64,000 nucleotides of DNA, from positions 26,603 to 90,602 of the forward strand of contig JAQVHS010000007.1 in assembly GCA_028696075.1 (NCBI GenBank), written 5' to 3'. Positions within the stretch are counted from its first letter, which is position 1, and each line of letters begins with the position of its first letter. The position numbers and the translations under genes are program-made. Shown one piece after another: positions 27,601 to 63,383 of the stretch. The notes under the pieces were generated by a model that was not told the origin of the DNA, did no database searches, and saw only the letters and a list, made by a program, of their open reading frames with translations. Origin of the DNA: Candidatus Gastranaerophilales bacterium (GTDB taxonomy: Bacteria; Cyanobacteriota; Vampirovibrionia; Gastranaerophilales; JAILCC01).

Positions 27601-30600
27601 CCGCAAGCCTTGCCAATGCTACATCAGGAAATACTGTATTAAATCTTAAATCAGATGCCGGCACTCTTACTTCATCGGGTCTTATCAGTATAAATGACGG
27701 TAATATTTTAAGTTTAACAAATGCCGTATCATTGGGTTCGATTTCACTCAATAGCGTATCAATGGGGGCAAATTCACAGATTGATATTAATGCAAACCGT
27801 ACTATCGCCGGCGCTATCAGCTTGGGATCTCTTACAGTGAATTCAACAGGTAATACCGTTACAAATACGGTTCCTGCCAATACTGCAACATTAGGCGTAA
27901 TTACCTTTAATAATACGTCAGATTTAACACTAAATTCAGGCGGTTTAAGTATTTCCGGGGTTACTTCAGACGGTGCGGGAACATTAAACAAAATTGCCGC
28001 AGGTACTCAGGATTTAGGAACATTAACCGTTAATGCCGATGATTCTTTGGTCATTAATTCAACAGCAGGAGATACAACGTTTACGAATGCCGGTCTTACA
28101 TCTGCGACAACCGGAAATAATTCAATACTTACACTAAATGCAAACGGGGGAAATATTGCTTCCACAGGAACAGTTACGCTCAACAACGGCGGTATATTAA
28201 ATGTAAATATGGCTGATACGACAAGTACCATTACTTTTAATGTGCTTAATATGACGGATAATACTCTGCTTGATTTATCCAACGGTAAAACCGAAACATT
28301 AGACATAGCTACTTTTAATGTTTTAAGCCCTGCTGACGTTGCAAAAGTAAGACTTGATATAGACTTAGGCGCTCAAACCACCGATTATTTAAATGTTTCC
28401 AATGCAATGACAAATGCCGTAACACTTGATTTTAATGCTGCGAATATTTTGAACAATCCGGGCGGCAGAAATGTATATTATTTTGAAGTTGCCAACGATA
28501 ATGTAAATATTAACGATTACAATAATCCACGTGTTGCTGTATTTTCTGCAACTAACGGATATTATATTTCTTACTTAAATATGCCTCCTAACTTACATCC
28601 GGGAGATGAATACACTTATCCTAAAAATACTATAAGAGTGACAACCGAAGACGTTAACGATGGATTAAGAGATGCGGTAACGGAACAAGGTTTAAGATTC
28701 TTTGACATTACTACATTGGATGAAATTCACTATGTAGGCAATAGCGCCGTTAATTCAGGTGAAGGGTTGCTTAATATGGATGTTACCACCGATGGTTCTT
28801 ATCCGGGCGGTACTTTAACAGTTAGAGGCAACGGATTTAACGGTACTATTTCAGGCGCGGCTACTCTTCCCGGCTTGACACCAGTTTCGTTATTTAAGGT
28901 AGATTCTTCTGCCGATGATGTATCGAGAACATTAAATATTGAAGGCGGTATAACTATTGCCGATGCAGTAGGTACAAACGGGGCTGCGGTTTATCTTAAA
29001 GACGGCGCTACAGCAGGCACTGCGAATTTGAATTTAGATGATGTTGCATTTACTTCTAATCAAAGCAGCGCACAAGGCGGTGCCATTTATAACGAAGGTA
29101 CTGTAGCTTCAACAGGAACAGTAATATTCGGCAGCTCAACAGACAATACAAAGGGTAATACAGCGGGAACTAACGGTGGTGCGATTTATAATCCTTCTAC
29201 AGCAACATTTAATGCGGATACGGGTTTTTACAATAACTCGGCAACTGCAGGAAGCGGCGGCGCTGTCTATAATACGGGAACATTATCGCTAGGAAGCGGA
29301 ACCGGTTCAAATATTGCAGCAGTAGAAAACCTTGCCTCATCAGGTGATGGCGGATTTTTATATAACGATACCGCTGCAACAACTACAATAAATGCGGATA
29401 ATATCGGCATATTATCCAACCAGGCACAGGAAGGCGGAGCCATTTATAATGCAGGAACTATAGTTTCAACAGGAACGATATTATTCGGCGATTCAACAGA
29501 TAATACAAAAGGTAATATAGCAGCTGTTAATGGCGGTGCAATTTATAATACTTCTACAGCAACATTTAATGCAAGTGCGGGTTTTTATAATAACTCCGCA
29601 ACAACAGGAAATGGCGGCGCTGTTTATAATGAAGGCTCATTATCCTTAGGAAGCGGAACAGGCTCACAGCTTGTAGCAGTAGAAAACCTTGCCTCATCAG
29701 GTAATGGCGGGTTTTTATATAACGATGCTGCGGGAACAGCTACGATAGGTGCAGATAATAGCAGTATACTATCCAATCAGGCGCAATCAGGCGGTGCCAT
29801 TTATAATGCAGGTAGTGTGATTTCAAACGGCACAGTAATATTCGGCGATTCAACAGATAATACAAAAGGTAATATAGCAGCTATTAATGGCGGTGCAATT
29901 TATAATACTTCTACAGCAACATTTAATGCGGATACGGGTTTTTATAATAACTCGGCAACTGCCGGAAGCGGCGGCGCCGTTTATAACGAGGGAATATTAA
30001 CGTTAGGAGGCGGAGTCGGTTCAACTGTTGAAGCAGCAGAGAACAAGGCGGATAATGCTCAAGGTGGATTTTTATATAACACCACTACCGGAACAACTAC
30101 GATAAATGCAGATAATATCAGTATATCATCCAATCAGGCACAATCAGGCGGCGCAGTTGCAAATACAGCCGGTGCAACATTTAATGTAACGGCTTCTAAT
30201 ATTTTGTTCAGCGGCAATACTGCTCTTTCTTCCACTACAGGAGGCGGCGCTATTTATAACGATGCAACGGGTGTTGCTAATCTGCAAGGTAATACTGTGT
30301 TTACTAATAATACTTCAGCAAGTCAGGGCGGTGCGATTTTTAATAATCTTGGCTCTGTAACATTAGGGGTTGATAAGACCAGTATTCACAATTTTACGAC
30401 TAATAATGCTCAAGATGGTGCGGCAATTGCCAATATCGGAGGGTCTGTTTCTGTAGAAGGCAATGCTGTATTTAATGGCAATACGGCTTCTGCAAAGGGT
30501 GGCGCTATTTACAACGAACTCGGTTCTGTAATAATAGGTACTGCCTCTGATAATGTTCACAGTTTTGTCGCTAATACTGCACAAGATGGCGGTGCTGTTT

Positions 30601-32960
30601 ATTCTTTAAATAATAATCTTGTATTTATCGGACAGACAACTTTCACAGGCAATAGCGCAACAGGAGATGGCGGTGCTGTTAATACCAATTTCAGTGATAT
30701 TAACTTTAGTCCTAATACCGTCTTCAATTCTAATAGCGCAAATAAAGGCGGTGCATTATTTGTAAACGGAAGTATCGTTAATATTGAAGAAGGTACTCAA
30801 TTTGTTAATAATACAGCTGTTTTGGATGGCGCTGCTATTTATATGACAGGAACAACAACCGACAATGCCGTTGTCAATATTAATTCTGATAATCCTTCAG
30901 CTCCTGTAGTATTTGCAAATAATACTTCAGGAAACGGGAATGCAATTTATTTGGAACAAAATTCTGTTTTGAATTTGAACGCCTCAAATAATGCAGGATT
31001 GGTATTACCTGAAAATATTGCAGGAACCGATAATAACAATATGATTAATGTTTACGCAGATTCTGATGCTCCCGTTACATTTAAAGGCAATAACAGCAGT
31101 TACGCCGGTGATTTCCATCTATACACAGGAGATGTTTATTTTACAAACGGTTCGACTTTCTTCAAAGGCGGAAATTACACGCTTGATGCCGGTACAGAAT
31201 TACATTTGATGAATAACCAAATTGATATTGTTACAGCTAAATCATTAAACTTACCTTCGGCAGATACTCCATATATGACAATGGATGGGGATTTGCAAAC
31301 CGGATTGAACGACAGGTTCTTTACTAATTCACCTGCGTTAGGAAACTTGACTATTTCAGACCTTAATTTAATGAATGAAAACAATGCTGCTGATACATAC
31401 TTCCAGATTGCAGACGGCGCTAACGTTAAACCTTTATATGAAGGAATGCAGACTAAGGGCAAATATTACAAATACGGAATATATTCGGCTCCTTCAGGAC
31501 TTAGGGTAGAAAAACAAGGCTTGATAGACACTTCTTATCAAGGCGGTCAGGTAGCTCAACTGGGGGCTTTAGCTAACCAATATATTATTTATAACCAGCT
31601 TGCCAAGAGAGCCGAAAATCTTTCTATCCAAAAATTCTATGAAAGAAAAGCCAAAGCTCAACAAAAAAGTGCTGAAAATACATCAGAAATTGCTGTAAAT
31701 AATGAACAGGAAAAAGTAAGCGAAATTTATATTCCGGCGACAGAAATTGTTCAAGCTCAGGAAGAATTAGCAAAAGAAGAAACTACGCTTGAAAACGCCA
31801 AATCTCAACCTGAAATAGCTGCAGCGGATGAATCCGGAGTAAAAGGCGAAACTCCTTTCCAACGTTTATTTACCAAGAAAAATAAAAAGGAAAATCCTAA
31901 AGTGCAGAATGAATTCTTGAAACAAAATCAGGAATTAATTACAGAATCAGCTGATATAAAAGAAGTATCAGATAAAGTACAAGTGGCTGCAGCACCTGCT
32001 GTGCTGAAACAAGAAAATACCGTTGAAAAAACAGCGGCCAGCGTATCATCCGATATACACTTAAATCTTGATGCTGATGTACTCCCTAAATCCGTTGATA
32101 ATTCGGTTATTTTAATCGATGAAAATAAACTTCCCACTTTAAGGTCTGATTATAATCAAATGATTAGCGCGCAGCCTGCTTATGACTTGAATTCAGGCGG
32201 GGTTTGGGTAGAACCATTTACTACAATTGAAACAATCAGCCCGGGCGGGTTATCAGGGTTTAAAAACTTCAATTACGGGGTATTGCTTGGCTATGATTTG
32301 CCTGTTAAAACTCTGGATAACGGATTGGAACTTCAAAGCTCCATATTTGGCGGTTATCAAGGTTCAAATCAAGATTATGATAATGTCAGAAACTGGCAAA
32401 ATGGCGGTTTTGGCGGCTATATGCTGAATTTATACAAAGGTAACGCATTCTCAACAGTAAGCTTACTTGCCGGCGGTATTGGTATTGATGTTCAGGATAA
32501 TCAGGGTAAAAACAACCAAAACTACGGTATGTTTACTTTGGGTGTGTCTTCCAAGACCGGGTATAATATCGGATTACCTGCTAATTTAATTCTTCAACCT
32601 AATTTAACGTTGGCGTATTCTTTCCTGACAGGACATGAGGGACAAAATGCCATCGGAGAAACAATAAAGGTTAATGCACTGAATAACCTTCTTGTAACTC
32701 CGGGAGTTAAACTGATTGGTGATTACAAAGGTTGGCAGCCATATTTAACCGCCGGTTTTGCGTTCCCGTTGTTTGGCAAAACTTTAGCTAACGTAAATAA
32801 CATTAATATGCCTGACGTGACCTTGCGTCCTTATATTGAATACGGCGGCGGAGTGAGAAAAAGCTTTGGTGAAAGGTTTGCAGGATTTTTTGAAGCCGTT
32901 TATAGAAATGGCGGAAGAACCGGTATTACCTTCCAGGGCGGGTTTACAATCAAATTCTAG
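24651..32960 (+). CDS. Giant autotransporter (type Va) with Pmp-type (GGA[I/V/L], FxxN) passenger repeats
   Basis: The ORF is 2769 aa. The signal peptide is MKKNIISALVLAGILACSLNQNAAQA. By my count there are about 30 GGAIYN/GGAVYN/GGFLYN motifs interleaved with F-x-x-N. A charged linker spans about 31560-32190. A C-terminal beta-barrel-like domain (about 32195-32957) has alternating aromatic/Gly strands and ends in ...GGFTIKF. Confidence 0.9.
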   Translation: MKKNIISALVLAGILACSLNQNAAQAGNVTITSYSELPGAGLISGDTLTLDADITVTDDNMQSYYPSGTFTIFGQGNSLDGSSLYEGFTIITPSIYTLNNVTVKNFLRSAGDGGGIHNSASLNLAGTSVIGDSNNAANGSGGFLYNTSSTVSSADNLILTSNTAQIGGAVYNATGATFTATSDISASGNSAVNGQGGAIFNMGTIGIATGTFTSNSSTLDGGAIYNSNNFTASGNLIFGDYTGSVASQGNSVSDGHGGAIYNSGTMDLQGGAEFYDNSAASSLTAHGGAIYNTGTLNIGGTALTAIDNATSNGDGGFLYNSSANTVNITSNNVTLSGNSALSGGAVYNMGTVDFTGTLNASNNTATAGDGGFLYAGAGSSTSIDNATVSNNTASSRGGAIYMEGAPGNAAVVDISASLSDTTFTGNTAGGNSNAIYMNSNSTVNIDSAVTTQVVFNDNIIANALNNNINITSGNVNFNADIQVNAASSLVLTNAGNTQLTTAAITSGTSGNPNTFTVNSNAGSVTSTGAVSVNDYNVLDLNTTSTGTVSLNTVSMGTSSDVNLNAGTADSVEITNLNINGTGNTLDSTGANANIGTVTFSSTSDLTLNTQNLSITTGIVSNGAGTLNKAATGTLDLGSLTVTADNSLTINSNAGDTTFTTASLANAASGNTTLTLNANAGNIASTGAVSVNDDNILNLSNNASGSTLALNGVTMGADSQINIAANNATPGSMDLGAVTVNSTGNTITNTVPANAATLGVITFNNTSDLTLNSAGLDITGVTSSGTGTLNKTATGTQDLGTVAVSADNVLNIISTAGDTTFTTANLTNATTGNTTTLSLTSNGSDISSTGAVSVNDNNTLNLTTDSTGVLSLNEVVLGADSQVRAFSGNSTADSLDLGKLTVNSTGNTVYNNLTSSNAVLGDITLNNTSSLTLGSGNLQIDSIISNGTGTVNKIVAGSQDIGTLTVNSDNALSINSLAGTTTFTTASLANATSGNTVLNLKSDAGTLTSSGLISINDGNILSLTNAVSLGSISLNSVSMGANSQIDINANRTIAGAISLGSLTVNSTGNTVTNTVPANTATLGVITFNNTSDLTLNSGGLSISGVTSDGAGTLNKIAAGTQDLGTLTVNADDSLVINSTAGDTTFTNAGLTSATTGNNSILTLNANGGNIASTGTVTLNNGGILNVNMADTTSTITFNVLNMTDNTLLDLSNGKTETLDIATFNVLSPADVAKVRLDIDLGAQTTDYLNVSNAMTNAVTLDFNAANILNNPGGRNVYYFEVANDNVNINDYNNPRVAVFSATNGYYISYLNMPPNLHPGDEYTYPKNTIRVTTEDVNDGLRDAVTEQGLRFFDITTLDEIHYVGNSAVNSGEGLLNMDVTTDGSYPGGTLTVRGNGFNGTISGAATLPGLTPVSLFKVDSSADDVSRTLNIEGGITIADAVGTNGAAVYLKDGATAGTANLNLDDVAFTSNQSSAQGGAIYNEGTVASTGTVIFGSSTDNTKGNTAGTNGGAIYNPSTATFNADTGFYNNSATAGSGGAVYNTGTLSLGSGTGSNIAAVENLASSGDGGFLYNDTAATTTINADNIGILSNQAQEGGAIYNAGTIVSTGTILFGDSTDNTKGNIAAVNGGAIYNTSTATFNASAGFYNNSATTGNGGAVYNEGSLSLGSGTGSQLVAVENLASSGNGGFLYNDAAGTATIGADNSSILSNQAQSGGAIYNAGSVISNGTVIFGDSTDNTKGNIAAINGGAIYNTSTATFNADTGFYNNSATAGSGGAVYNEGILTLGGGVGSTVEAAENKADNAQGGFLYNTTTGTTTINADNISISSNQAQSGGAVANTAGATFNVTASNILFSGNTALSSTTGGGAIYNDATGVANLQGNTVFTNNTSASQGGAIFNNLGSVTLGVDKTSIHNFTTNNAQDGAAIANIGGSVSVEGNAVFNGNTASAKGGAIYNELGSVIIGTASDNVHSFVANTAQDGGAVYSLNNNLVFIGQTTFTGNSATGDGGAVNTNFSDINFSPNTVFNSNSANKGGALFVNGSIVNIEEGTQFVNNTAVLDGAAIYMTGTTTDNAVVNINSDNPSAPVVFANNTSGNGNAIYLEQNSVLNLNASNNAGLVLPENIAGTDNNNMINVYADSDAPVTFKGNNSSYAGDFHLYTGDVYFTNGSTFFKGGNYTLDAGTELHLMNNQIDIVTAKSLNLPSADTPYMTMDGDLQTGLNDRFFTNSPALGNLTISDLNLMNENNAADTYFQIADGANVKPLYEGMQTKGKYYKYGIYSAPSGLRVEKQGLIDTSYQGGQVAQLGALANQYIIYNQLAKRAENLSIQKFYERKAKAQQKSAENTSEIAVNNEQEKVSEIYIPATEIVQAQEELAKEETTLENAKSQPEIAAADESGVKGETPFQRLFTKKNKKENPKVQNEFLKQNQELITESADIKEVSDKVQVAAAPAVLKQENTVEKTAASVSSDIHLNLDADVLPKSVDNSVILIDENKLPTLRSDYNQMISAQPAYDLNSGGVWVEPFTTIETISPGGLSGFKNFNYGVLLGYDLPVKTLDNGLELQSSIFGGYQGSNQDYDNVRNWQNGGFGGYMLNLYKGNAFSTVSLLAGGIGIDVQDNQGKNNQNYGMFTLGVSSKTGYNIGLPANLILQPNLTLAYSFLTGHEGQNAIGETIKVNALNNLLVTPGVKLIGDYKGWQPYLTAGFAFPLFGKTLANVNNINMPDVTLRPYIEYGGGVRKSFGERFAGFFEAVYRNGGRTGITFQGGFTIKF
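26095..28260 (+). repeat. About 4.5 tandem copies of a ~474-489-bp (~160-aa) coding repeat inside the autotransporter
   Basis: The anchor S(T/S)G(A/L/T)(V/I)(S/T)... (STGAVSVND, SSGLISIND, STGTVTLNN) recurs at 26229, 26703, 27192, 27675 and 28164. Each unit contains GTLNK..GTQDLGTLTV..D..L.INS.AGDTTFT. The outer boundaries are approximate. Confidence 0.85.
29076..30146 (+). repeat. Three tandem copies of an exact-length 357-bp (119-aa) coding repeat inside the autotransporter
   Basis: The anchor ggcgg(t/a)gccatttataa occurs at 29076, 29433 and 29790, with the next unit starting at 30147. An 89-nt stretch starting at 29484 and at 29841 differs at a single position. Confidence 0.9.
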
Positions 32961-56248: not shown

Positions 56249-57661
56249 TTACACTATGAAATCGTCGTTGATTTTTTGGATAATTTCATCTATAAAATAC
56301 TTCACCTTTTTATCGGTTTGATAATCTTCTTTGGTCTTTTCATAAGAGTAAAGAACCGTTGTATGCTTTCTGTTTATGACACTTCCTATTTGAGGGAAGC
56401 TGGATTTTACAAGCTCTCTTGTCAAATAAACAGCTATATGCCTTGCGAGAGCTATGTCTTTGGAGCGCGAAGATGCCTTAATTTCAGAAGGTTCTATATT
56501 AAAGTAATCACCAACGTAATTGATTATACCTTCCGCAGTGAGTTCTTTTTCTCTGGCGGCAAAGTTAATTATCTTTTTAGCGGTTTCAAGCGTTACAGCT
56601 GTATTTTGAATACTTGCAAAAGCGCTCATTCTGTTTAAAGCTCCCTCAAGCTCCCTTACGTTATTCTTGAAGACTGATGCTATAAGCTCTAAAACGGATA
56701 ACGGGATGCTCAGGTTTTCTTCTTTTACTTTTTGTTTAAGAATTTCGACTCTAGTTTCATAAGGCGGGGGAGTAATTTGAGCCAGAAGCCCCCATTCAAA
56801 CCTGCTCCTTAGCCTGTCTGTCAAAGTAGATATATCTTTGGGCGGACGGTCGCTGGTTATTACTATTTGTTTACCGTTTCTGTGCAGGTGGTCAAAAATA
56901 TTGAACAATTCATCCTGGGTTTTTTCTCTGCCTTCCAAAAATTGTACATCGTCTATTAACAATACATCAACGTTTTTGTACTTGTTTTTAAATTCATTTT
57001 TTTTCTTCTCATTGCCTTTATAAGCAACCATAATTTGGACAAACTCGTTAGTAAGTTCTTCGACTGTAACGTATCTGACTTTTTTATCATGATGGTTTAG
57101 AAGAATATAATGTCCTATAGAGTGAAGAAGATGGGTTTTCCCCAATCCTGCGCCCCCGTACAAAAACAGCGGGTTATATAATGTTCCCGGCTTGCGGGCG
57201 ATGCTTTTCGCTGCTCCTAATGCAAATTTATTGGATTCACCTTCTATAAAGTTGTCAAATGAATACTTCAAATTAAGATTGAAAGATGTCATCTTTAATC
57301 TTTCATAAGGGTTTTCATCCAAAGGAAGTTTTTGCTGGACAACTTCTGTAGTATCAAAAGGCACAGGCTTTTGCGGTGTAAATTTCGGCTTGAATTTGCT
57401 ATCTAATATTATATCGAATTCGCTGTAAGGATTTTGTGTAACTTCTCTTAAGGCGTTTAAAATCTCAAGGTTATATCTTTTTCTGACATAATCCTGCTGC
57501 ATGGTTCTGTTTGTAACCAAATAAAGTGTATTATCTTCAAAAGACTTGAATCCTAAGGGTTTTATCCACATTTCAAAAGCAGGTGTGGTCATTCTGTCTT
57601 CAAGGTTTTTTAGAATTTCTTTCCATAATAGTTTAGTATTTTCTACCACTACACATTCCAA
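56249..57661 (-). CDS. dnaA: Chromosomal replication initiator protein DnaA
   Basis: Walker A is GGAGLGKTHLL and Walker B is LLIDDVQFL. The sensor region is ITSDRPP. The C-terminal DNA-binding helix-turn-helix reads ARHIAVYLTRELVKSSFPQIGSVINRKHTTVLYS. Confidence 0.95.
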   Translation of the reverse strand: MECVVVENTKLLWKEILKNLEDRMTTPAFEMWIKPLGFKSFEDNTLYLVTNRTMQQDYVRKRYNLEILNALREVTQNPYSEFDIILDSKFKPKFTPQKPVPFDTTEVVQQKLPLDENPYERLKMTSFNLNLKYSFDNFIEGESNKFALGAAKSIARKPGTLYNPLFLYGGAGLGKTHLLHSIGHYILLNHHDKKVRYVTVEELTNEFVQIMVAYKGNEKKKNEFKNKYKNVDVLLIDDVQFLEGREKTQDELFNIFDHLHRNGKQIVITSDRPPKDISTLTDRLRSRFEWGLLAQITPPPYETRVEILKQKVKEENLSIPLSVLELIASVFKNNVRELEGALNRMSAFASIQNTAVTLETAKKIINFAAREKELTAEGIINYVGDYFNIEPSEIKASSRSKDIALARHIAVYLTRELVKSSFPQIGSVINRKHTTVLYSYEKTKEDYQTDKKVKYFIDEIIQKINDDFIV

Positions 57662-57920
57662 TATTAATATTCTCCAGCCAGATAAAACTTATAAAACCAA
57701 TGTGTAAAATCTTTAAAACAAATTTTTTTCGAATTTTCACAATAGTTTTTATGTGTAATAAATATCTTATAACAAAACATTTAAAAGTGAGCATAATTTT
57801 TGAAAATCTTCACAAAAATTTATTGTCTGTTAAATATTAAAATTTGATGTAAATATTTGTAAAAAAAATATCAAAAAAACCTGGAAAATGTCTTAAAGCT
57901 TTTGTAAATTGGTAAAATAG
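57662..57920. other. Candidate oriC / dnaA promoter region
   Basis: This very AT-rich 259-bp tract is upstream of dnaA. It has DnaA-box-like 9-mers relative to TTATNCACA: TGTGTAAAA at 57701-57709 (1 mismatch), ATTTTCACA at 57733-57741 (2), TGTGTAATA at 57752-57760 (2) and ATCTTCACA at 57806-57814 (2). TTTTCCACA (1 mismatch) lies at 56235-56243, just past the dnaA stop. Confidence 0.35.
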
Positions 57921-57922
57921 TT

Positions 57923-58422
57923 ATGGGGACTGAATTTTCTTTAGTACATGCAGCCGCTAACGATGTTAATGCACCGTTGAATTTTGAAATGTTAGGATAT
58001 GGGCTTAATCCTTATGATAAGAAGCTAAACTTTTCAGGGAAGCAACTTCTCCTGAAACCCCTGACGTTTACTCTATTGCGCATCCGGGGCTAATTTCTTT
58101 ATCTAACGCTGATGACTATGCGAAAAGCCTTAAGGAACATTGCAAGGCAAAACAGTATGATTGGAAGCAGCATTTATTTGAAAGGTTTTTAGAGCAAATA
58201 ACAGGCGACAGCAAAGGTAAATTAATTGGCGCCGAGCTGAATTATCAATCTTACGCTCAACGCTACGACGGGTTTGAAGGTTATGTAAACCATATAAAAA
58301 ACAGAGCCTCATCCTCCAAATTTAACTTAGCTGCCAGCGGCGGTTTAGATTGTCATGGGAATAACCTTTTTACCAAAAGTGACAAAATATCTCCGGAAAT
58401 TTTAGAAGAACTTCTTGGATAG
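57923..58422 (+). pseudogene. Decayed, internally deleted paralog of the downstream PHP-domain gene
   Basis: Frame 1 (57923 to the stop at 58091) reads MGTEFSLVHAAANDVNAPLNFEMLGYGLNPYDKKLN. That matches aa 258-291 of the 613-aa protein (GSEISVSHIDPNDVVRPVEFELMGYALNPFNSKLN). A different frame (58021-58422) reads ...YSIAHPGLISLSN...AELNYQSYAQ...LAASGGLDCHGNNLF...ILEELLG*, matching aa ~478-600. The N-terminal 257 aa and about 185 central aa are missing. Confidence 0.7.
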
Positions 58423-58508
58423 TAAATAAATTTGCATTAAATTGTATATAATTAATTTATACTATATTAATTATTGTAAAATTTTTATTTTAAGAAATGT
58501 AAAAAATG

Positions 58509-58536
58509 TGTAAAAAACCGCATAAATTGGTACAAT
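58509..58536 (+). promoter_or_regulatory. Candidate promoter of the PHP/nucleotidyltransferase operon
   Basis: TGTAAA (58509-58514) sits at the -35 position, followed by a 16-nt spacer and an extended -10 TGG-TACAAT (58528-58536). A second TGTAAA lies 11 bp upstream (58498-58503). Confidence 0.35.
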
Positions 58537-58561
58537 ATTAGTTGGAAATAAGGTAAAGCAT

Positions 58562-60403
58562 GTGCGTATAAATTCTACAAATTCTAATTGTAATTCGTAT
58601 TGCATTTCTAAGGGAAATTTATATTTAAAACAAAATTCCTCTTTTAAGGCTGACCCTTTTGCCCAATTTCAGTATAATCAAAGGGTTGCCACTATTGTCC
58701 CTATTGCCTCTGTTGCTCCTGTTGCGTCATTTCCCGTGAATATGGCAGTTCCCGTTGCCGCGGCAGACAGCGGTTTGGGGTTGGGAACTCTGATAGGAGG
58801 ACTTGCCGCTGCCGGCGGGATATTTGCCCTGATTATAAAATTCATCAGAGGCAGGGGCGGCAACCCGCCTATAGATGCGGGGATTAAGCTTTTAAAAGGG
58901 CAATACCAAAAAATCATCCAAAATTTTCCTTCGGACAAAGTTTATTACGAACAACTGGCGAAAGATACAGGTTTAGCGGCAGGTGAAGAATTTAAACTTA
59001 CGTCTGTGGTTGGTAAAGCTCAACTTTCGGACTTGCTGGGTAAATTCTCACCGCAGGACTTTAAAGTTGGCGAAAATCTTGAAGGCGTCAGGGATTTAAC
59101 ATACCGGGTTAATTTGCATAATCATACGCAGGCTTCTGACGGTAAATTATCAGTATTTGATTTTTTGGAACAGGCAAGAAAATGGGCAGATAAGATTGCC
59201 GGTAAAGTCAAGGATGATAAGCCTCCTTTTACAATAGCAATAACGGACCATGACACTTTAGACGGAGCAAAAGAAGCGGTTAGAATAATCGCTCAAAATC
59301 CTGAAAAATACAAAAATTTAAGGGTGGTTTTAGGTTCTGAAATAAGTGTATCTCATATTGACCCTAACGATGTGGTAAGACCCGTCGAGTTTGAGCTTAT
59401 GGGGTATGCATTGAATCCGTTTAACTCTAAGTTAAACGGATTGCTGAAACAAGTCGGTGAAAACAGGGAAAGCGCTATAGCTCAATTACTTACTAAAATT
59501 AAAGCCCAATTCCCTGAATACAATATAGGGTTTGAAAACAGCAAATCTTTCCATTCTAATTTGAAAAATGTCCGCACAAACGGCGTTTTATATCTGGCGG
59601 GAGATTACGCTAAATTCAAAATAATGTTTAGTAATTATATTGGTTTGATTAATTCAAAAATACTGCCTGACGGACAGCAAAAACTTGATAAAGAAAAACT
59701 GTTTAGCGAACTCTCCGATTCTTATTATTGTTGGATGGATGCTACAGGGAATAAAGATATAGTAACCTTTTTAAAAGATTATGGTATAAAGAAAATTCTT
59801 TCCGACAGAAATCTTCTAACCGCTCAAAATCAATCTGTATACGAAGAGATATTTAAAAAGGATTTTAAACAATACAGTGATTTTATAAGTAATGAGGTGA
59901 AAGAAGCGCTTCCCGCAATAGCAGACACTAAGGGTTATGCACTATTGCCAAAGCAAGTTTTTGAGGCAATCAGACAAAGTGACGGGCAGGGATTTTTTGG
60001 TTTTGCGCATCCTGCGCTTATTAAGTTAAATAGTGATAACGGAAGCAATATTTCACCTGCAAGATTAAAAAGTCTGCAATCCTGGGAAGATAAGAACAAA
60101 AATCTTGTATACAGGGTATTCCAATCATTGAAACAGGAGGGCAAGGATTTATTTGACGCTTCCGAGATTAATTATCAATCTTACGGCAAAGAAATTGGTA
60201 ATGATTGGATAAAATTTATGAAGGAAGACATCGCTGATTGCAATTCTTTAAAGTTGAAATATACAGGCGGAGTCGACTGCCATAAGCCTTCCATATTTTT
60301 AAAACATAAGCTTTTGGCTAAAGACGATATAGAAAGACTAAATTTACGCGAATTGTTGGGAGAAAATTATGAAAGTTACGCCGCTTTATTCAAATTCGTA
60401 TAA
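58562..60403 (+). CDS. Membrane-anchored PHP-family metal-dependent phosphoesterase
   Basis: The 613-aa ORF has a GTG start. A single TM helix spans about aa 70-95 (GLGLGTLIGGLAAAGGIFALIIKFI). PHP motifs occur in canonical order: VNLHNHTQASDG, IAITDHDTLDG, LGSEISV, FAHP and GGVDCH. Confidence 0.8.
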   Translation: MRINSTNSNCNSYCISKGNLYLKQNSSFKADPFAQFQYNQRVATIVPIASVAPVASFPVNMAVPVAAADSGLGLGTLIGGLAAAGGIFALIIKFIRGRGGNPPIDAGIKLLKGQYQKIIQNFPSDKVYYEQLAKDTGLAAGEEFKLTSVVGKAQLSDLLGKFSPQDFKVGENLEGVRDLTYRVNLHNHTQASDGKLSVFDFLEQARKWADKIAGKVKDDKPPFTIAITDHDTLDGAKEAVRIIAQNPEKYKNLRVVLGSEISVSHIDPNDVVRPVEFELMGYALNPFNSKLNGLLKQVGENRESAIAQLLTKIKAQFPEYNIGFENSKSFHSNLKNVRTNGVLYLAGDYAKFKIMFSNYIGLINSKILPDGQQKLDKEKLFSELSDSYYCWMDATGNKDIVTFLKDYGIKKILSDRNLLTAQNQSVYEEIFKKDFKQYSDFISNEVKEALPAIADTKGYALLPKQVFEAIRQSDGQGFFGFAHPALIKLNSDNGSNISPARLKSLQSWEDKNKNLVYRVFQSLKQEGKDLFDASEINYQSYGKEIGNDWIKFMKEDIADCNSLKLKYTGGVDCHKPSIFLKHKLLAKDDIERLNLRELLGENYESYAALFKFV

Positions 60404-63101
60404 AAACAGGCAGCTTTCACCTAACTTTAGAAGCAAAACTGTTTATGAGAGTCATAAAATTATCGAAAAAGATATTTTATCACTGTCAGAAGCAAAATAT
60501 CTTGCTGTTAATCCCGAAACTCCAAAGCAGGAAATTCTTGGCGTTAATTTAAGCAGGGCTGATGAGAAAACAATAGAATTAACATCAAGATACGGGAATA
60601 AAACGGGAACAATAACCTATAATCCGAATGTAAAACAACCGGAGATAAATGTTCAGGCAGGTTCATTCCAGCCCGTTATTGAGCTAAAGGACGAAGAACT
60701 TGGCATAACTCTTCTTATGACAAGAGGTTCAACTTTGCAGGGAAACAATTTAAACGTAAATTACAAACCTGTTGCAAGACCTGATATTTCATTTAGGAGC
60801 GGGCATAATTTAGTTGTAGCAACAGGTTATAAAGCTGAAAAAACAAGTGAGATAGTAAACAATTATAATTTCAATAGGGAATATAGTACCTTTGATGTTT
60901 TTATGCAGGCTTTAAGACGCCAATACACTATATTCGGACTTGGCGCAGGCTATGGTTCAAGGTTAAAGCCGATATCAGATTTAACAGGTGATAATAAGTT
61001 ATCAACAAAATACCCCGGCGGTAAAAACAGCATATTTGAAGTAGCTGTCTTGGATGCTGCAATGAGGCTGGGAAAAATTGGCAACATTCAAGTGGTACGG
61101 GAAAATCCTGATAATTTATCGGGTACGGCGGGCGCTATTATTAAGTGTTTAAAAAACGGCACGGTACCTATGGATAAACCACTGATTTTATTGACAGGGG
61201 ACACATTTAATAATATTGATTTGAGTGAAGCTGCCTATCAGGCGGAACAATTTCATTTATCGGGGATTGCAATGTTGGTTTCTGCTGTTGATGAAAATGA
61301 ATTAATCGGCAAAGCTCCGATAAAATTTGATGAAAATAATGAGATAACAGAACTGTACCCTGTAATCACTCCTGAAAATTATTCTGAAATTGTAAGTAAA
61401 GCAAAGGTTGAGGGGAAAATTTATACGGGAACGAATATAGTTATTATACAACCGGAAATTCTTTCTATTCTTAAAAAATTTGCAGATGCTGACGGCAAGG
61501 CGGATTTTCTTGAATTTTTCGGGTTGATGTTTAATACATTAAATAAAAATACAGAGATATTAGAAAAGAAATACCCAAACGGTTTAACATCAGAAGAGTT
61601 AAAGATAAGTGATTTGGTTGATTATACAGGCAATCCCAATCCTGTTTATAATAAAGACAATAAAGCTTTAAAATTAAAGGCTATAGTCGCAAATAAGGAT
61701 TACCTTTCTGAATATAAATGTTTTTCTTCTGATATGGGAACAATAGAGGAATATTTTAATACCCTTCATAAGATAAAAAAAGAAAAATCTATAGTAAGGA
61801 TGAAACAGGAAACTTTAGATACCATTAAATCTCATATTGATGATAACGGCGTTATTTATATGAATACCGAAGCAAAGTCAAAATTAGTTCAGTTTCAACA
61901 AAAATACGATATAAATTCTGTCAGCGGAAATGTCATTGTACATTCTTTCAAGCCTAAACAGCCGGTGGAAATTACACCCGCCCCGGCAGTTAATAAAAAA
62001 GAAGAGCATACAGGTGGAAGGAACCTGCTTGATTTAACCTATAAACCTGAAGAAAATGATATAACCGTAGGCGCAATGTTTCTTTGCGGGGATGTCAACA
62101 ACTTTGCACAGCAAATGATTCAAAAACACGGACTATTACCTTTTATATCCTGGTATTTGAGTCCTAAGGGCTACTATGGCGCTTATGAAAGATATGTCCA
62201 AAAATTATATAATCGTTCAAACTCGCTGGAAATGTTATTAAAATATGCGCCTAATTGGTCGCCCTGGAAACTGGAAGAAAAATCATGGCTGCTTCAAAAT
62301 CCTTCACTCTCAAATGTTTCGGAAAATATGAGAGAAAGACTGTTTCATGCAGAATTGGATAAAAAAAGAGAAATTCCTTTTACTATAGGCAAATTACCGG
62401 AGATTTTCCCTAATAATGATGCTTTTTTACAGCTGATAAAAACCTTAAAAACAAGAGAAATTCTTGATGCCAGCCTTTACATCGGGGGAGGTAATTACAA
62501 AGTTGAGAGGTTAAAAGGCGGCGAGCTGAATGATAAATTTATTTACTTACTGGAACGTAATAATAAAAAATTTATTTTAAAATTTGACAGAATTAACGTT
62601 GAAGACTCCGACACGGTAGACGGCAGGAAATTATCTCTTATTGAGCAGCGCTCAATAAGAAAAAACAAGTACACAGCCGCTGATTCTATTTATTCCAATG
62701 CTTGTATAAGCGCATATCTTCAATACAACGGTTGTTCCCATATACCTGAAATGTTTTATTATCACCATGGCGCAAATGCCGCAATTTATGAATATATTGA
62801 AGATAAAGACGGAGACTTATTTCAGCATAATCTGCTTAATACGGAATATGACAGTTTGTCAGAAACAAACAAAACGTATAAGATGCTAAACAAATTAGGT
62901 GTATTCTTAAATGATACCGCATATAAAAACACGCTGACCGATAGCAAAGGAATGAAAAAAATTATCGATTTGGGACATGCTTCATTTTTTATGCCGTTTA
63001 AGCCCGGAATTAAACATTATAATATAGAATTTGCTAACACAAACGGGCCTGATATGAGTGCTATTTATGCAGGTTTATTAAATATCCAATATTCTTTATA
63101 A
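60369..63101 (+). CDS. 910-aa multidomain protein: unknown N-terminal region + sugar-nucleotidyltransferase-like domain + C-terminal protein-kinase-like domain
   Basis: A GGGAGA SD lies upstream and the gene overlaps the upstream gene by 35 nt. The NTP-transferase signature is FGLGAGYGSRLKP...LSGTAGAI...LLTGDTF (aa ~186-390). The C-terminus (aa ~710-910) has kinase-like elements: KFILKF, YEYIED, LNDTAYKN (D...KN catalytic-loop-like) and IIDLGHA (DFG-like). Confidence 0.75.
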   Translation: MKVTPLYSNSYKNRQLSPNFRSKTVYESHKIIEKDILSLSEAKYLAVNPETPKQEILGVNLSRADEKTIELTSRYGNKTGTITYNPNVKQPEINVQAGSFQPVIELKDEELGITLLMTRGSTLQGNNLNVNYKPVARPDISFRSGHNLVVATGYKAEKTSEIVNNYNFNREYSTFDVFMQALRRQYTIFGLGAGYGSRLKPISDLTGDNKLSTKYPGGKNSIFEVAVLDAAMRLGKIGNIQVVRENPDNLSGTAGAIIKCLKNGTVPMDKPLILLTGDTFNNIDLSEAAYQAEQFHLSGIAMLVSAVDENELIGKAPIKFDENNEITELYPVITPENYSEIVSKAKVEGKIYTGTNIVIIQPEILSILKKFADADGKADFLEFFGLMFNTLNKNTEILEKKYPNGLTSEELKISDLVDYTGNPNPVYNKDNKALKLKAIVANKDYLSEYKCFSSDMGTIEEYFNTLHKIKKEKSIVRMKQETLDTIKSHIDDNGVIYMNTEAKSKLVQFQQKYDINSVSGNVIVHSFKPKQPVEITPAPAVNKKEEHTGGRNLLDLTYKPEENDITVGAMFLCGDVNNFAQQMIQKHGLLPFISWYLSPKGYYGAYERYVQKLYNRSNSLEMLLKYAPNWSPWKLEEKSWLLQNPSLSNVSENMRERLFHAELDKKREIPFTIGKLPEIFPNNDAFLQLIKTLKTREILDASLYIGGGNYKVERLKGGELNDKFIYLLERNNKKFILKFDRINVEDSDTVDGRKLSLIEQRSIRKNKYTAADSIYSNACISAYLQYNGCSHIPEMFYYHHGANAAIYEYIEDKDGDLFQHNLLNTEYDSLSETNKTYKMLNKLGVFLNDTAYKNTLTDSKGMKKIIDLGHASFFMPFKPGIKHYNIEFANTNGPDMSAIYAGLLNIQYSL

Positions 63102-63198
63102 AGTGTAAATATTTGTAAATAAATCCTGTTTTTTACTAAAGTTTTTCAAATAAATGCCGATAAGTACATTATCGAAGGTAGAGAATAAGGAGTATATT

Positions 63199-63336
63199 AT
63201 GAGCAGCCAGCAATTTTATTGGGCAGGAACTTACAGCTTTAAAAATGAGGTAAGATTTTTCCTTGAACTGCTAAAAAAACAAATAGATTTACTCTTGTCA
63301 AAAATTGAAAAGACAGAAAAGTTTATTGAACGGTGA
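63199..63336 (+). CDS. Small hypothetical protein (45 aa)
   Basis: I start it at ATG 63199, which has a strong AAGGAG SD 6 nt upstream, rather than the track start at 63154. A clean terminator follows. Confidence 0.4.
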   Translation: MSSQQFYWAGTYSFKNEVRFFLELLKKQIDLLLSKIEKTEKFIER

Positions 63337-63362: not shown

Positions 63363-63383
63363 AGAGGCGCAAGCCTCTTTTTT
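63363..63383 (+). terminator. Intrinsic terminator
   Basis: An AGAGGC-gcaa-GCCTCT hairpin is followed by a T5 run. It lies in the 53-nt gap between convergent genes. Confidence 0.6.

What the first reader, a model, noticed from the sequence alone, without database searches (positions are those of the whole stretch)
57848..63119. Membrane PHP esterase translationally coupled to a 910-aa nucleotidyltransferase/kinase-like fusion beside dnaA, bracketed by an exact 16-bp direct repeat
Seen in the sequence:
- The ORF at 58562-60403 has one TM helix followed by a complete set of PHP metal-site motifs.
- It overlaps by 35 nt a 910-aa ORF that has its own SD.
- The 910-aa ORF combines four parts: about 185 aa I cannot assign, a sugar-nucleotidyltransferase signature (GLGAGYGSRLKP ... 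LLTGDTF), a ~300-aa linker, and a protein-kinase-like/APH-like C-terminus (KFILKF, YEYIED, LNDTAYKN, IIDLGHA).
- The exact 16-mer TGTAAATATTTGTAAA occurs at 57848-57863 and at 63104-63119. Those two copies enclose the pair plus a decayed paralog.

Established knowledge: a kinase plus a nucleotidyltransferase is the activate-then-transfer logic of LicA/LicC-type head-group pathways. PHP proteins are phosphoesterases (for example CpsB-type phosphatases).

Inference: the three activities together could form a phosphorylate/nucleotidylate/dephosphorylate cycle acting on an envelope or small-molecule substrate. I do not know an architecture with this order, size and partner.
Basis: partly seen in the sequence, partly recalled or inferred. 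Interest (0 to 1): 0.7.

Follow-up and report, generated by a model that had tools for sequence, protein, structure and literature searches.

The report
Conserved phosphoesterase–kinase operon in gut Melainabacteria
This is a real two-gene operon, found so far only in relatives of gut Melainabacteria, that pairs a membrane-anchored metal phosphoesterase with a large unannotated protein fusing a nucleotidyltransferase to a new kinase-like family; its substrate is unknown, and the flanking 16-bp repeat and the dnaA neighbour are incidental.

Summary
The ORFs, the 35-nt overlap, the Shine-Dalgarno site, the single TM helix and the motifs are all present. The window comes from a Candidatus Gastranaerophilales MAG.

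- **PHP gene (58562-60403).** It encodes a TrpH/YciV-class PHP phosphoesterase with a complete metal-ligand set.
- **910-aa gene (60369-63101).** It has four parts: an unassigned beta domain, a sugar-phosphate nucleotidyltransferase fold, a conserved helical domain, and a minimal protein-kinase-like domain with the catalytic K, D, N and D conserved. No Pfam, NCBIfam, PDB, PADLOC or PHROG entry covers the architecture.
- **Linkage.** The two genes abut or overlap in every related locus with upstream DNA. Nothing else is conserved around them, so dnaA is incidental.
- **16-mer.** The repeat is at chance level and is absent from relatives.
- **Upstream remnant.** It derives from a different PHP paralog, not from the adjacent gene.
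- **Main new result.** The conserved couple is PHP plus helical/kinase module. It recurs in five gene arrangements, including intact variants without the nucleotidyltransferase and a locus with two kinases and a PHP-PHP fusion. The nucleotidyltransferase half also occurs alone, so it is an accessory fusion.

The obligate three-enzyme cycle is not supported as stated. The mechanism remains inferred.

The parts
57848..57863 (+). Upstream copy of the exact 16-mer TGTAAATATTTGTAAA. It is judged a chance match in AT-rich intergenic DNA. Its reverse complement carries two TTTACA hexamers, one of which forms a promoter-like site facing dnaA.
57914..58423 (+). Decayed remnant of a PHP paralog. It covers residues ~242-280 and ~434-549 of a P0107-like protein in two frames, with stops and large deletions.
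58562..60403 (+). PHP phosphoesterase gene (613 aa, GTG start; NCBI locus tag PHX18_06065), TrpH/YciV class.
58781..58846 (+). Single predicted transmembrane helix of the PHP protein (residues 74-95), followed by KFIRGRGG.
59102..59416 (+). First half of the PHP core (residues ~181-285). It holds H186-x-H188, D193, D229-H230-D231, E260 and E278.
59417..59989 (+). Enlarged insertion domain of the PHP protein (residues ~286-476). It starts with the helix that carries R302, which aligns with RNase AM R107.
59990..60301 (+). Second half of the PHP core (residues ~477-580). It holds A-H483-P and G-G-x-D572-x-H574.
60358..60362 (+). Shine-Dalgarno-like GGGAG for the 910-aa gene, lying inside the PHP coding sequence.
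60369..60403 (+). The 35-nt overlap of the two genes. Relatives range from a 41-nt overlap to a 3-nt gap.
60369..63101 (+). The 910-aa multidomain gene (PHX18_06070).
60456..60824 (+). N-terminal all-beta domain (residues ~30-152). It is conserved but unassigned.
60921..61808 (+). Sugar-phosphate nucleotidyltransferase fold (residues ~185-480). Conserved motifs are GxGxGxR (194-198), GTAG (252-255), LTGD (D278) and DxGT (D455).
62028..62372 (+). Conserved helical domain (residues ~554-668), with the motifs WY..GYYGAYE and PNWSPWKLEEK.
62373..63098 (+). Minimal protein-kinase-like domain (residues ~669-910). It holds G717-G718, K738, the YEYIED hinge, D849...N854 and D867-L-G-H.
63104..63119 (+). 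Downstream copy of the 16-mer, 2 nt after the stop codon. It is judged a chance match.
63363..63378 (+). The first intrinsic-terminator-like hairpin found downstream of the pair on the + strand (AGAGGCGCAAGCCTCT followed by a T-run). It is the probable end of the transcription unit.

Best explanation
SHOWN. The locus is a vertically conserved two-gene operon. All organism labels obtained point to Melainabacteria (Gastranaerophilales).
- Gene 1 encodes a PHP metal phosphoesterase of the TrpH/YciV (RNase AM, pAp-phosphatase) class. It is anchored by one N-terminal TM helix and carries a much enlarged insertion domain.
- Gene 2 encodes a soluble 910-aa fusion of two independent modules. The first is a beta domain plus a sugar-phosphate nucleotidyltransferase. 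The second is a helical domain plus a minimal protein-kinase-like (PKL) domain with intact catalytic residues.
- The evolutionarily conserved unit is PHP plus the helical/PKL-kinase module.
- The nucleotidyltransferase module is an accessory. It is fused in this clade, absent in some intact variants, and free-standing elsewhere.

INFERRED.
- The kinase and the PHP enzyme act on the same phosphorylated, non-protein substrate (sugar- or nucleotide-type) at the cytoplasmic face of the membrane.
- The kinase adds a phosphate with ATP.
- In this clade the fused nucleotidyltransferase couples a phosphorylated intermediate to an NMP, giving an NDP-linked product.
- The membrane-tethered PHP hydrolyses a phosphoester of the product, the by-product or the intermediate.
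- This resembles the logic of the HldE/GmhB or PAPS-synthase/pAp-phosphatase pathways, built from different folds.
For: Identity and source
- The window proteins match MAG proteins PHX18_06065 and PHX18_06070 of Candidatus Gastranaerophilales at 100% identity.

PHP class
- NCBIfam's best partial hits are RNase RNM and 3',5'-nucleoside bisphosphate phosphatase.
- The family profile hits only TrpH-class PDB chains above noise: 9etk 2e-13, 3e0f 1e-8, RNase AM 7ug9 4e-5 and Cv1693 2yb1 1e-3. The only other row is DNA polymerase PolC (3f2b) at E 0.23. No CpsB/YwqE chain appears.
- The metal ligands map onto those of RNase AM, as listed in PMC9410882.

Nucleotidyltransferase
- PF00483 matches 14 of 16 family members, best 8.7e-9. 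Free-standing halves score up to 55.8 bits against a cut-off of 21.2.
- Foldseek finds ADP-glucose, GDP-mannose and dTDP-glucose pyrophosphorylases at E ~5e-7.

Kinase
- The profile aligns the catalytic loop and the DFG-equivalent motif to BTK (E ~3e-3).
- Foldseek on the C-terminal model finds RIOK2 at 9e-4, then Rio2, PRPK/Bud32, lanthipeptide-synthetase kinase domains, CK2, PknB and LicA.
- K738, D849, N854 and D867 are invariant or at least 90% conserved in 27 sequences that average 23% identity.

Linkage
- PHP lies immediately upstream of the large gene in 8 distinct related loci (11 fetched loci; L001-L003/L005 and L004/L009 are duplicates). Junctions run from a 41-nt overlap to a 3-nt gap, and no other gene is shared.
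- The other arrangements are PHP then NTase-less variant (L012), PHP then kinase half (L016), kinase half then PHP (L018, L022), and large protein, then kinase half with TPR, then a PHP-PHP tandem fusion (L025).
- PHP and kinase divergences correlate across 10 loci, r = 0.88.

Other points
- The nucleotidyltransferase halves occur alone or in tandem (L017, L026).
- Within the clade all domains are similarly constrained, at 46-56% pairwise identity.
- Membrane tethering comes from the TM helix followed by basic residues.
Against: - No activity, substrate or interaction was tested.
- The window's own 910-aa protein gets no Pfam hit at all.
- It also lacks the E-K motif (FxEKP in other nucleotidyltransferases) that some relatives keep.
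- Only one of the three arginines that bind the 5'-phosphate in RNase AM (R107, aligned to R302) is recognisably conserved. R110 and R201 are not. The TrpH-type substrate inference is therefore weak.
- The kinase's nearest folds are protein kinases or ATPases (RIO, Bud32, CK2) with weak scores (TM 0.3-0.45). They are not clearly small-molecule kinases.
- A kinase and a phosphoesterase that always travel together could equally be antagonists on a protein.
- Some distant kinase-half loci show no PHP within the DNA available (L019, L020, L024).
- Topology comes only from the positive-inside rule.
Confidence: 0.4

Rival explanations
1. Writer/eraser signalling pair. The PKL domain is a protein kinase and the PHP enzyme is its cognate protein phosphatase, as CpsB/YwqE is for BY-kinases. 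The fused nucleotidyltransferase is the regulated output or the substrate.
For: - Kinase and PHP modules are coupled one-to-one in five arrangements, including two kinases with a PHP-PHP fusion.
- The best sequence and fold matches of the kinase are protein kinases.
- From knowledge: PHP phosphatases are known erasers for capsule tyrosine kinases, and such kinases target sugar-nucleotide enzymes.
Against: - The PHP is TrpH-class. No CpsB/YwqE chain appears in the PDB profile search at E<=1.
- The kinase has no activation segment and no substrate-binding C-lobe. Only about 43 residues follow the DLG motif.
- Variants without the nucleotidyltransferase would then lack the proposed output.
Confidence: 0.25
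2. The three activities form an obligate LicA/LicC-like pathway: phosphorylate, then nucleotidylate, with PHP as the pathway phosphatase, acting on one envelope head-group or small molecule.
For: - The nucleotidyltransferase and kinase are fused, and both are conserved with intact motifs.
- From knowledge: fusions or operons of this logic exist, such as LicC/LicA, AmgK/MurU, FKP and HldE with GmhB.
- The PHP is membrane-anchored.
Against: - Intact variants without the nucleotidyltransferase keep the PHP partner (L012, L016; P0134 is a further NTase-less protein of unknown context).
- The nucleotidyltransferase half occurs without kinase or PHP.
- No APH or choline-kinase Pfam hit was found. 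LicA ranks only 39th, at E 4e-2.
- The phosphate-binding E-K motif is absent from the window's protein.
Confidence: 0.15
3. The pair belongs to a repertoire of exported or specially targeted effector-like enzymes. These share an N-terminal leader (MKIxP..., a low-complexity stretch, then [IV]SF[KR]G), and some carry a hydrophobic segment for insertion into a target membrane.
For: - A leader-like motif occurs in the first 100 residues of 34/148 relatives of the large protein and 51/118 members of an unrelated partner family. It occurs in 0/37 other ORFs of the window and about 0 in internal control windows.
- Unrelated neighbouring unknown proteins in L022 and L024 carry it too.
- From knowledge: kinases, nucleotidyltransferases and phosphoesterases are typical effector chemistries.
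Against: - The window's own two proteins have only degenerate versions (NFRS, SFKA).
- No secretion system or chaperone is linked in any locus.
- The motif is short, and no cleavage or export has been shown.
- Gastranaerophilales are not known to inject effectors (from knowledge).
Confidence: 0.12
4. A toxin-antitoxin or anti-phage defence module. A kinase or nucleotidyltransferase toxin is neutralised enzymatically by the PHP partner.
For: - It is a two-gene overlapping operon with variable genomic context, several paralogous pairs per genome and a decayed copy next door.
- One distant locus lies near an integrase.
Against: - No PADLOC or PHROG match was found.
- The proteins are very large.
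- Divergence tracks between the partners as for vertically inherited genes.
- Neighbours are housekeeping genes and no mobile-element hallmarks are present in the window.
Confidence: 0.05

Closest known systems
TrpH/YciV-class PHP enzymes (COG0613): RNase AM, Cv1693 3',5'-nucleotide bisphosphate phosphatase, Bifidobacterium 3e0f
   Same: - The PHP barrel has the same ligand pattern: HxH, D, (D)H(D), E, H/E, H, DxH.
- A helical insertion begins at the same place.
- One arginine of the 5'-phosphate pocket aligns.
- These are the only PDB sequence relatives above noise.
   Different: - It has an N-terminal TM anchor and an extra conserved ~80-residue domain before the core.
- The insertion is about twice as long.
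- R110 and R201 of RNase AM are not conserved.
- Scores are far below the NCBIfam equivalog cut-offs (35.7 bits against 375).
- It is always paired with a kinase-like protein.
CpsB/YwqE PHP phosphotyrosine phosphatases paired with BY-kinases
   Same: A PHP-fold phosphoesterase is encoded next to a kinase, and the system has a membrane-associated component (from knowledge).
   Different: - There is no detectable sequence relationship to the CpsB class.
- The kinase here has a PKL fold, not a P-loop BY-kinase fold.
- The PHP here is about 2.5 times larger and carries an insertion domain.
Kinase + NDP-sugar/head-group pyrophosphorylase pairs and fusions (LicA/LicC, AmgK/MurU, Bacteroides FKP, HldE with GmhB)
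   Same: - The same fold class of nucleotidyltransferase (PF00483-like) is combined with an ATP-dependent kinase in one protein.
- In the heptose pathway a phosphatase completes the trio (from knowledge).
   Different: - The kinase is not an APH/choline-kinase, GHMP or PfkB type.
- The domain order and the extra beta and helical domains are unmatched.
- The nucleotidyltransferase is dispensable in natural variants.
- The phosphatase is PHP rather than HAD.
Minimal protein-kinase-like enzymes (RIO kinases, Bud32/PRPK, lanthipeptide-synthetase kinase domains; from knowledge also Kdo/WaaP sugar kinases)
   Same: - It is a short PKL domain with the β3 Lys, a DxxxxN catalytic loop and a metal-binding Asp, but no activation segment or large C-lobe.
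- These are the best Foldseek matches.
   Different: - The matches are weak (E 9e-4 at best, TM 0.30-0.45).
- No Pfam family covers it.
- The catalytic loop reads [LY]NDxxxxN, and the DFG equivalent is D-x-G-H.
- An obligatory N-terminal helical domain carries WY..GY..AY and PNWxPW motifs.

Membership tests
PHP superfamily (PF02811) | Conserved His/Asp/Glu metal ligands in the HxH, DH, E, H and DxH motifs | tested here: met
   H186, H188, D193, H230, E260, H483, D572 and H574 are invariant in 18 homologs. E278 is replaced by His in distant members. The Pfam hit is sub-threshold for the window protein (18.5 against 26.4 bits), but PF02811 is precomputed for several homologs.
TrpH/YciV (RNase AM / pAp phosphatase) class | PHP core interrupted by a helical insertion domain, with sequence similarity to solved members | tested here: met
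   The profile hits 9etk (2e-13), 3e0f (1e-8), 7ug9 (4e-5) and 2yb1 (1e-3). The alignment runs into the first insertion helix.
TrpH/YciV (RNase AM / pAp phosphatase) class | Arginine cluster binding the substrate 5'-phosphate (RNase AM R107, R110, R141), plus R201 at the active site | tested here: inconclusive
   R302 aligns with R107 and is at least 90% conserved. The R110 and R201 positions are Ala and Leu. R141 could not be aligned.
TrpH/YciV (RNase AM / pAp phosphatase) class | NCBIfam equivalog score for RNase RNM or nucleoside bisphosphate phosphatase | tested here: not met
   It scores 35.7 bits against a cut-off of 375, and 26.8 against 400. Only the N-terminal ~110 profile positions are covered.
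CpsB/YwqE PHP tyrosine phosphatases | Sequence similarity to the CpsB-type PHP core (~250 aa, no insertion) | tested here: not met
   No CpsB/YwqE chain appears among PDB hits at E<=1. No NCBIfam hit of that type was found.
NTP_transferase (PF00483) sugar-phosphate nucleotidyltransferases | Fold and signature motifs: G-x-G-x-R loop, GTAG, (L)xGD Mg site, DxGT | tested here: met
   PF00483 matches 14/16 family members (best 8.7e-9), though not the window protein itself. Free-standing halves score up to 55.8 bits. Foldseek E ~5e-7 to AGPase, GMPP and RmlA. The motifs are invariant.
NTP_transferase (PF00483) sugar-phosphate nucleotidyltransferases | E-K (FxEKP) motif whose Lys binds the substrate phosphate | tested here: not met
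   The window protein reads LYPVI at this position. The motif is kept in only part of the family (FHEKI in P0010, P0012-P0015).
Protein-kinase-like superfamily | β3 Lys, catalytic-loop Asp and Asn, metal-binding Asp, bilobal fold | tested here: met
   K738, D849, N854 and D867 are conserved across 27 diverse sequences. The profile aligns to the BTK catalytic loop and DFG motif. All Foldseek hits are kinases.
Eukaryotic-type protein kinases (PF00069) | Pfam gathering score; activation segment (APE) and helical substrate-binding C-lobe | tested here: not met
   Only 2/16 members hit Pkinase, at E ~1e-3. Only about 43 residues follow the DLG motif, and the model shows no αF-αI equivalent.
LicA / APH / choline-kinase-type small-molecule kinases | Pfam APH or Choline_kinase match, or a close fold match | tested here: not met
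   No APH or choline-kinase family appears among the member scans. LicA 4r7b ranks 39th, at E 4e-2.
Known anti-phage defence systems / phage protein families | Match to a PADLOC or PHROG model | tested here: not met
   No PADLOC hit at E<=1. PHROG hits are only at E>=0.01, to families of unknown function.
Kinase-phosphoesterase operon (translational coupling) | Co-transcription and coupled translation of the two genes | not testable with these tools
   The evidence is only positional: overlaps or abutting junctions in all loci, a Shine-Dalgarno site inside the upstream gene, and no + strand terminator hit in the 60369-60403 junction or between the 910-aa stop (63101) and 63363. Two weak terminator-like hits lie inside the 910-aa gene (61098-61110, 62011-62027), and the total of five hits does not exceed shuffles (mean 3.8).

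The most novel reading that the evidence does not exclude
The operon is one member of a Melainabacteria-specific repertoire of otherwise unrelated enzymes. These include a new PKL-kinase family, TrpH-like PHP esterases, nucleotidyltransferases and a Pol-beta-like candidate family. All carry a shared N-terminal leader (MKIxP..., then [IV]SF[KR]G) and come in enzyme/counter-enzyme pairs. In this reading the leader is a previously unrecognised targeting or export signal, and the pairs are effector-like or compartment-targeted modification systems.
Probability: 0.15. Interest if true: 0.8.

Novelty: new variant of a known kind. Interest (0 to 1): 0.5.

Why it matters
Gut Melainabacteria remain largely uncultured (from knowledge), and much of their lineage-specific gene content is unannotated.

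- **A unit to test.** This locus defines a strictly linked phosphoesterase-kinase unit built on a kinase-like family that no curated library covers. It also shows how a nucleotidyltransferase module was fused onto that unit. This gives biochemists a concrete pair to test together rather than three orphan domains.
- **If the couple acts on an envelope or nucleotide-type metabolite.** It would add a new fold combination to the known kinase/nucleotidyltransferase/phosphatase activation pathways.
- **If it is a writer/eraser pair.** It would extend PHP-based dephosphorylation beyond the CpsB class.
- **Shared leader.** The N-terminal leader seen across several orphan families could point to an unrecognised targeting system in this lineage.

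Tried and rejected
- **16-mer as a mobile-element or recombination boundary: rejected.** Exact 16-mers recur by chance in this AT-rich window. The 16-mer is absent from the related loci L001-L004. The flanks are housekeeping genes.
- **dnaA/oriC connection: rejected.** dnaA is a neighbour only in this genome. There is no DnaA-box cluster in the intergenic region, and box counts are at the shuffle level.
- **Remnant as a duplicate of the adjacent gene: rejected.** It derives from the P0107 paralog lineage.
- **Small ORF 63154-63336 (likely start at 63200, with an AAGGAG site upstream) as a third module gene.** It is not conserved in any locus.
- **Neighbours of paralogous PHP genes as divergent kinase halves: no.** hhalign gives probability below 1%. 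They form a separate family with a Pol-beta-like GSD[IL]D motif. That family has no PDB or Pfam support, so the motif is only a lead.
- **Defence or phage origin.** No PADLOC or PHROG support was found.
- **Tools unavailable or unproductive.**
  - The first metagenome scan with a too-diverse alignment failed. The second gave only 4 loci.
  - The cluster look-up returned no organism names for distant members.
  - Literature searches found no description of this architecture.
- **The N-terminal beta domain and the helical domain could not be assigned to any known fold.** Foldseek hits were dominated by the nucleotidyltransferase and kinase parts.

Full report
**1. The observation**

ORFs 58562-60403 (GTG start, 613 aa) and 60369-63101 (ATG, 910 aa) are present on the + strand. 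They overlap by 35 nt. GGGAG sits 6 nt before the second start, inside the first gene. Both starts are supported by homolog N-termini.

The window proteins match PHX18_06065 and PHX18_06070 of a Candidatus Gastranaerophilales MAG at 100% identity. The flanking genes are housekeeping: dnaA (56249-57661, -), an aminotransferase, a PAS histidine kinase and GTP cyclohydrolase II.

The first protein has one hydrophobic helix, residues 74-95 (KD 2.17), followed by KFIRGRGG. The second has none.

**2. The 16-mer and the remnant**

The exact 16-mer is at both stated positions, but this is not remarkable.
- The window contains about ten other isolated exact 16-18-mer pairs.
- First- and third-order Markov simulations of the window give on average 3 and 5 repeated 16-mers.
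- The 16-mer is absent from related loci L001-L004.
- Its reverse complement is two TTTACA hexamers. The upstream copy is part of a promoter-like site facing dnaA.

I treat it as a chance match in AT-rich intergenic DNA.

The region 57914-58423 is a decayed PHP fragment in two frames. Its best match is P0107, the second PHP paralog of the same MAG (residues 242-280 and 434-549; E 5e-35). The adjacent gene scores only 3e-10.

**3. The PHP protein**
- Pfam PHP is sub-threshold.
- NCBIfam's best partial hits are RNase RNM and 3',5'-nucleoside bisphosphate phosphatase.
- In an alignment of 18 homologs down to 24% identity, H186, H188, D193, H230, E260, H483, D572 and H574 are invariant.
- A profile of that alignment finds TrpH-class chains in the PDB: 9etk 2e-13, 3e0f 1e-8, RNase AM 7ug9 4e-5 and Cv1693 2yb1 1e-3. 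The only other row is DNA polymerase PolC (3f2b) at E 0.23.
- The invariant residues correspond to the RNase AM ligands H13, H15, D20, H45, E72, H198, D255 and H257 (PMC9410882).
- H83 corresponds to E278, which is His in distant family members.
- R302 aligns with R107 of the 5'-phosphate pocket. R110 and R201 are not conserved.

It is therefore a TrpH-like scaffold. It has an N-terminal anchor, an extra conserved ~80-residue domain and a roughly doubled insertion. It is not an equivalog of any characterised enzyme.

**4. The 910-aa protein**

It has no Pfam, NCBIfam or PDB sequence hit by itself. Only 16 clusters of full-length homologs exist, at 42-50% identity and all with the same architecture.

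The AlphaFold model (pLDDT 71.7) gives four folded parts:
- a beta domain, residues 30-152;
- an alpha/beta domain, residues 185-530;
- a helical domain, residues 555-665;
- a kinase-like domain, residues 670-910.

*Nucleotidyltransferase.*
- PF00483 matches 14 of 16 members.
- Profile hits include a cyanobacterial UDP-glucose pyrophosphorylase and RmlA.
- Foldseek E is ~5e-7 to ADP-glucose, GDP-mannose and dTDP-glucose pyrophosphorylases and to viral sugar-nucleotide enzymes.
- G194, G196, R198, the GTAG motif, D278 and D455 are invariant.
- The FxEKP lysine motif is missing in this protein, although some relatives keep it.

*Kinase-like domain.*
- The profile aligns LNDTAxKN and IIDLGH to HRDLAARN and DFG of BTK.
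- A separate model of residues 540-910 (pLDDT 74.5, pTM 0.77) matches RIOK2 (9e-4). It also matches Rio2, PRPK/Bud32, lanthipeptide-synthetase kinase domains, CK2, PknB and, weakly, LicA.
- It is a minimal kinase: only about 43 residues follow the metal-binding Asp.

All domains are similarly constrained within the clade, at 46-56% pairwise identity.

**5. Linkage**
- A PHP homolog lies immediately upstream on the same strand in every related locus that has upstream DNA. These are 11 fetched loci, which collapse to 8 distinct related loci (L001-L003 and L005 are one place; L004 and L009 are near-identical).
- Junctions range from a 41-nt overlap to a 3-nt gap.
- No other gene is conserved.
- dnaA is a neighbour only here.

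**6. The core is kinase plus PHP**

An exhaustive profile search found 208 representatives at E<=1e-3. Many of them are separate halves:
- proteins of ~400-460 aa matching only the helical plus kinase part;
- proteins of ~450-620 aa matching only the beta plus nucleotidyltransferase part. Pfam scores for the latter reach 55.8 bits.

Context look-ups gave these arrangements:

| Arrangement | Locus |
|---|---|
| PHP, then kinase half | L016 (hhalign E 3e-97 to the PHP family) |
| Kinase half, then PHP | L018, L022 |
| PHP, then an intact 537-aa variant lacking residues ~140-490 | L012 |
| 1008-aa full-length relative, then a kinase half with TPR repeats, then a 1006-aa tandem PHP-PHP fusion | L025 |
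| Nucleotidyltransferase halves alone or in tandem, with no kinase or PHP | L017, L026 |

- Two further variants lack the nucleotidyltransferase: the protein P0134 and the gene in L019. L019 shows no PHP in the ~3.8 kb held upstream.
- Across 27 diverse kinase-half sequences (mean identity 23%), the β3 Lys, catalytic Asp and Asn and metal-binding Asp are invariant or at least 90% conserved. So are the WY..GY and PNW motifs of the helical domain.
- PHP and kinase divergences correlate across 10 loci, r = 0.88. The pairs are not independent, so this is descriptive only.
- Some distant kinase-half loci show no PHP in the DNA held (L019, L020, L024). These contigs are short or truncated.

**7. Mechanism (inferred)**
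- ATP- and NTP-dependent domains must be cytoplasmic. The positive-inside rule also puts the PHP catalytic domain in the cytoplasm, tethered to the membrane.
- The strict pairing suggests that both enzymes handle one phosphorylated substrate.
- I favour a non-protein substrate (0.4) for three reasons. The PHP is of the nucleotide/sugar-phosphate-processing TrpH class. The kinase lacks protein-substrate-binding elements. The fused partner in this clade is a sugar-phosphate nucleotidyltransferase.
- A protein writer/eraser pair (0.25) is the main rival.
- A targeted or exported effector repertoire (0.12) and a TA or defence role (0.05) are less likely.

**8. Comparison and novelty**
- The parts belong to known superfamilies.
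- No curated family or solved structure shares the architecture.
- The helical/kinase family and the PHP subfamily are unannotated.
- The TrpH-like PHP plus PKL-kinase couple is not a described system in the libraries and papers I could search.
- I rate it a new variant of a known kind, of moderate interest.

**9. Side observations**
- Paralogous PHP genes (P0107, P0117) pair with a different, equally unannotated family of at least 171 proteins (the hits with E<=1e-3). Its labelled members are named Gastranaerophilales or 'Cyanobacteria bacterium'.
- That family carries a Pol-beta-like CSxGxxKAxPGSD[IL]D motif. This is a motif-level lead only.
- Many of these proteins, from unrelated families, share an N-terminal pattern: MKIxP..., a low-complexity stretch, then [IV]SF[KR]G. 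Counts are 34/148 and 51/118, against 0/37 for other ORFs in the window.
- The window's own two proteins have only degenerate forms of this pattern.

Noticed in passing
Relatives P0132-P0279 and P0284-P0403; neighbours in L022 (2193-3509 -, 3522-5723 -) and L024 (209-2326, 2347-3624); window 58562-58660 and 60369-60440 (degenerate forms): Unrelated enzyme families share an N-terminal pattern: M[KR][IV]xP..., 10-60 low-complexity residues, then [IV][SN]F[KRQ]G, often preceded by ALKA-like residues. The families are kinase halves, nucleotidyltransferase halves, PHP, a Pol-beta-like family and other unknowns. Counts in the first 100 residues are 34/148 and 51/118, against 0/37 for other window ORFs and about 0 in internal control windows. 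In some proteins a TM helix follows. It may be a lineage-specific targeting signal.
   Followed up: partly
L014 1832-3253 (+); L015 2669-3895 (+): The PHP paralogs P0107 (same MAG as the window) and P0117 pair, in either order, with a family of ~400-500-aa proteins. These have no Pfam or PDB sequence match. They carry a conserved CSxGxxKAxPGSD[IL]DKxYVIIKG motif that resembles Pol-beta-type nucleotidyltransferases. At least 171 homologs were found, and the labelled ones are Gastranaerophilales or 'Cyanobacteria bacterium'.
   Followed up: partly
L025 11088-14108 (+): A 1006-aa protein consists of two tandem PHP modules of this family. It is encoded directly after two kinase-like proteins of 1008 aa and 671 aa (the latter with TPR repeats). 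The locus therefore has two kinase modules and two PHP modules.
   Followed up: partly
L012 6001-7614 (+); L019 3783-5233 (+); protein P0134: These are intact in-frame variants of the large protein that lack the whole nucleotidyltransferase domain (residues ~140-490). They keep the beta, helical and kinase parts. In L012 the PHP gene is still upstream.
   Followed up: yes
window 24651-32960 (+): A 2769-aa ORF with a signal-peptide-like N-terminus (MKKNIISALVLAGILACS...). It has long internal direct repeats with a period of 357 nt, for example at 29194/29551/29908, and other repeats between 26.7 and 29.9 kb. It is probably a giant repetitive surface protein.
   Followed up: no
window 1758-1841 (within ORF 1223-2278, - strand): There are four tandem copies of a 21-nt unit: CTGTTTTTGCAGCAGC recurs at 1762, 1783, 1804 and 1825. 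This is an in-frame 7-residue repeat inside a 351-aa ORF.
   Followed up: no
window 63154-63336 (+), likely start at 63200: A small ORF (about 45 aa from the ATG preceded by AAGGAG) lies between the 910-aa gene and the hairpin terminator at 63363-63378. It is not conserved in any related locus.
   Followed up: yes
window 57834-57863 (- strand): The reverse complement of the upstream 16-mer supplies a TTTACA hexamer. With TAATAT 18 nt away it forms a sigma-70-like site oriented toward dnaA, whose start is at 57661.
   Followed up: no
window 22486-23223 (-) and 8066-8638 (-): Two further unannotated ORFs begin in the same style as the leader-bearing families: MQINIINNINNSFGTALY... and MSVNFSNINTNIG.... 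They may belong to the same lineage-specific class.
   Followed up: no
L007 (ONYB01000017.1) and L013 (CAZHCP010000003.1): Contigs carrying the full PHP plus large-protein pair are titled 'uncultured Brachyspira sp. RUG745' and 'uncultured Muribaculaceae bacterium'. All other labelled copies are Gastranaerophilales. These labels are probably binning or taxonomy errors.
   Followed up: no
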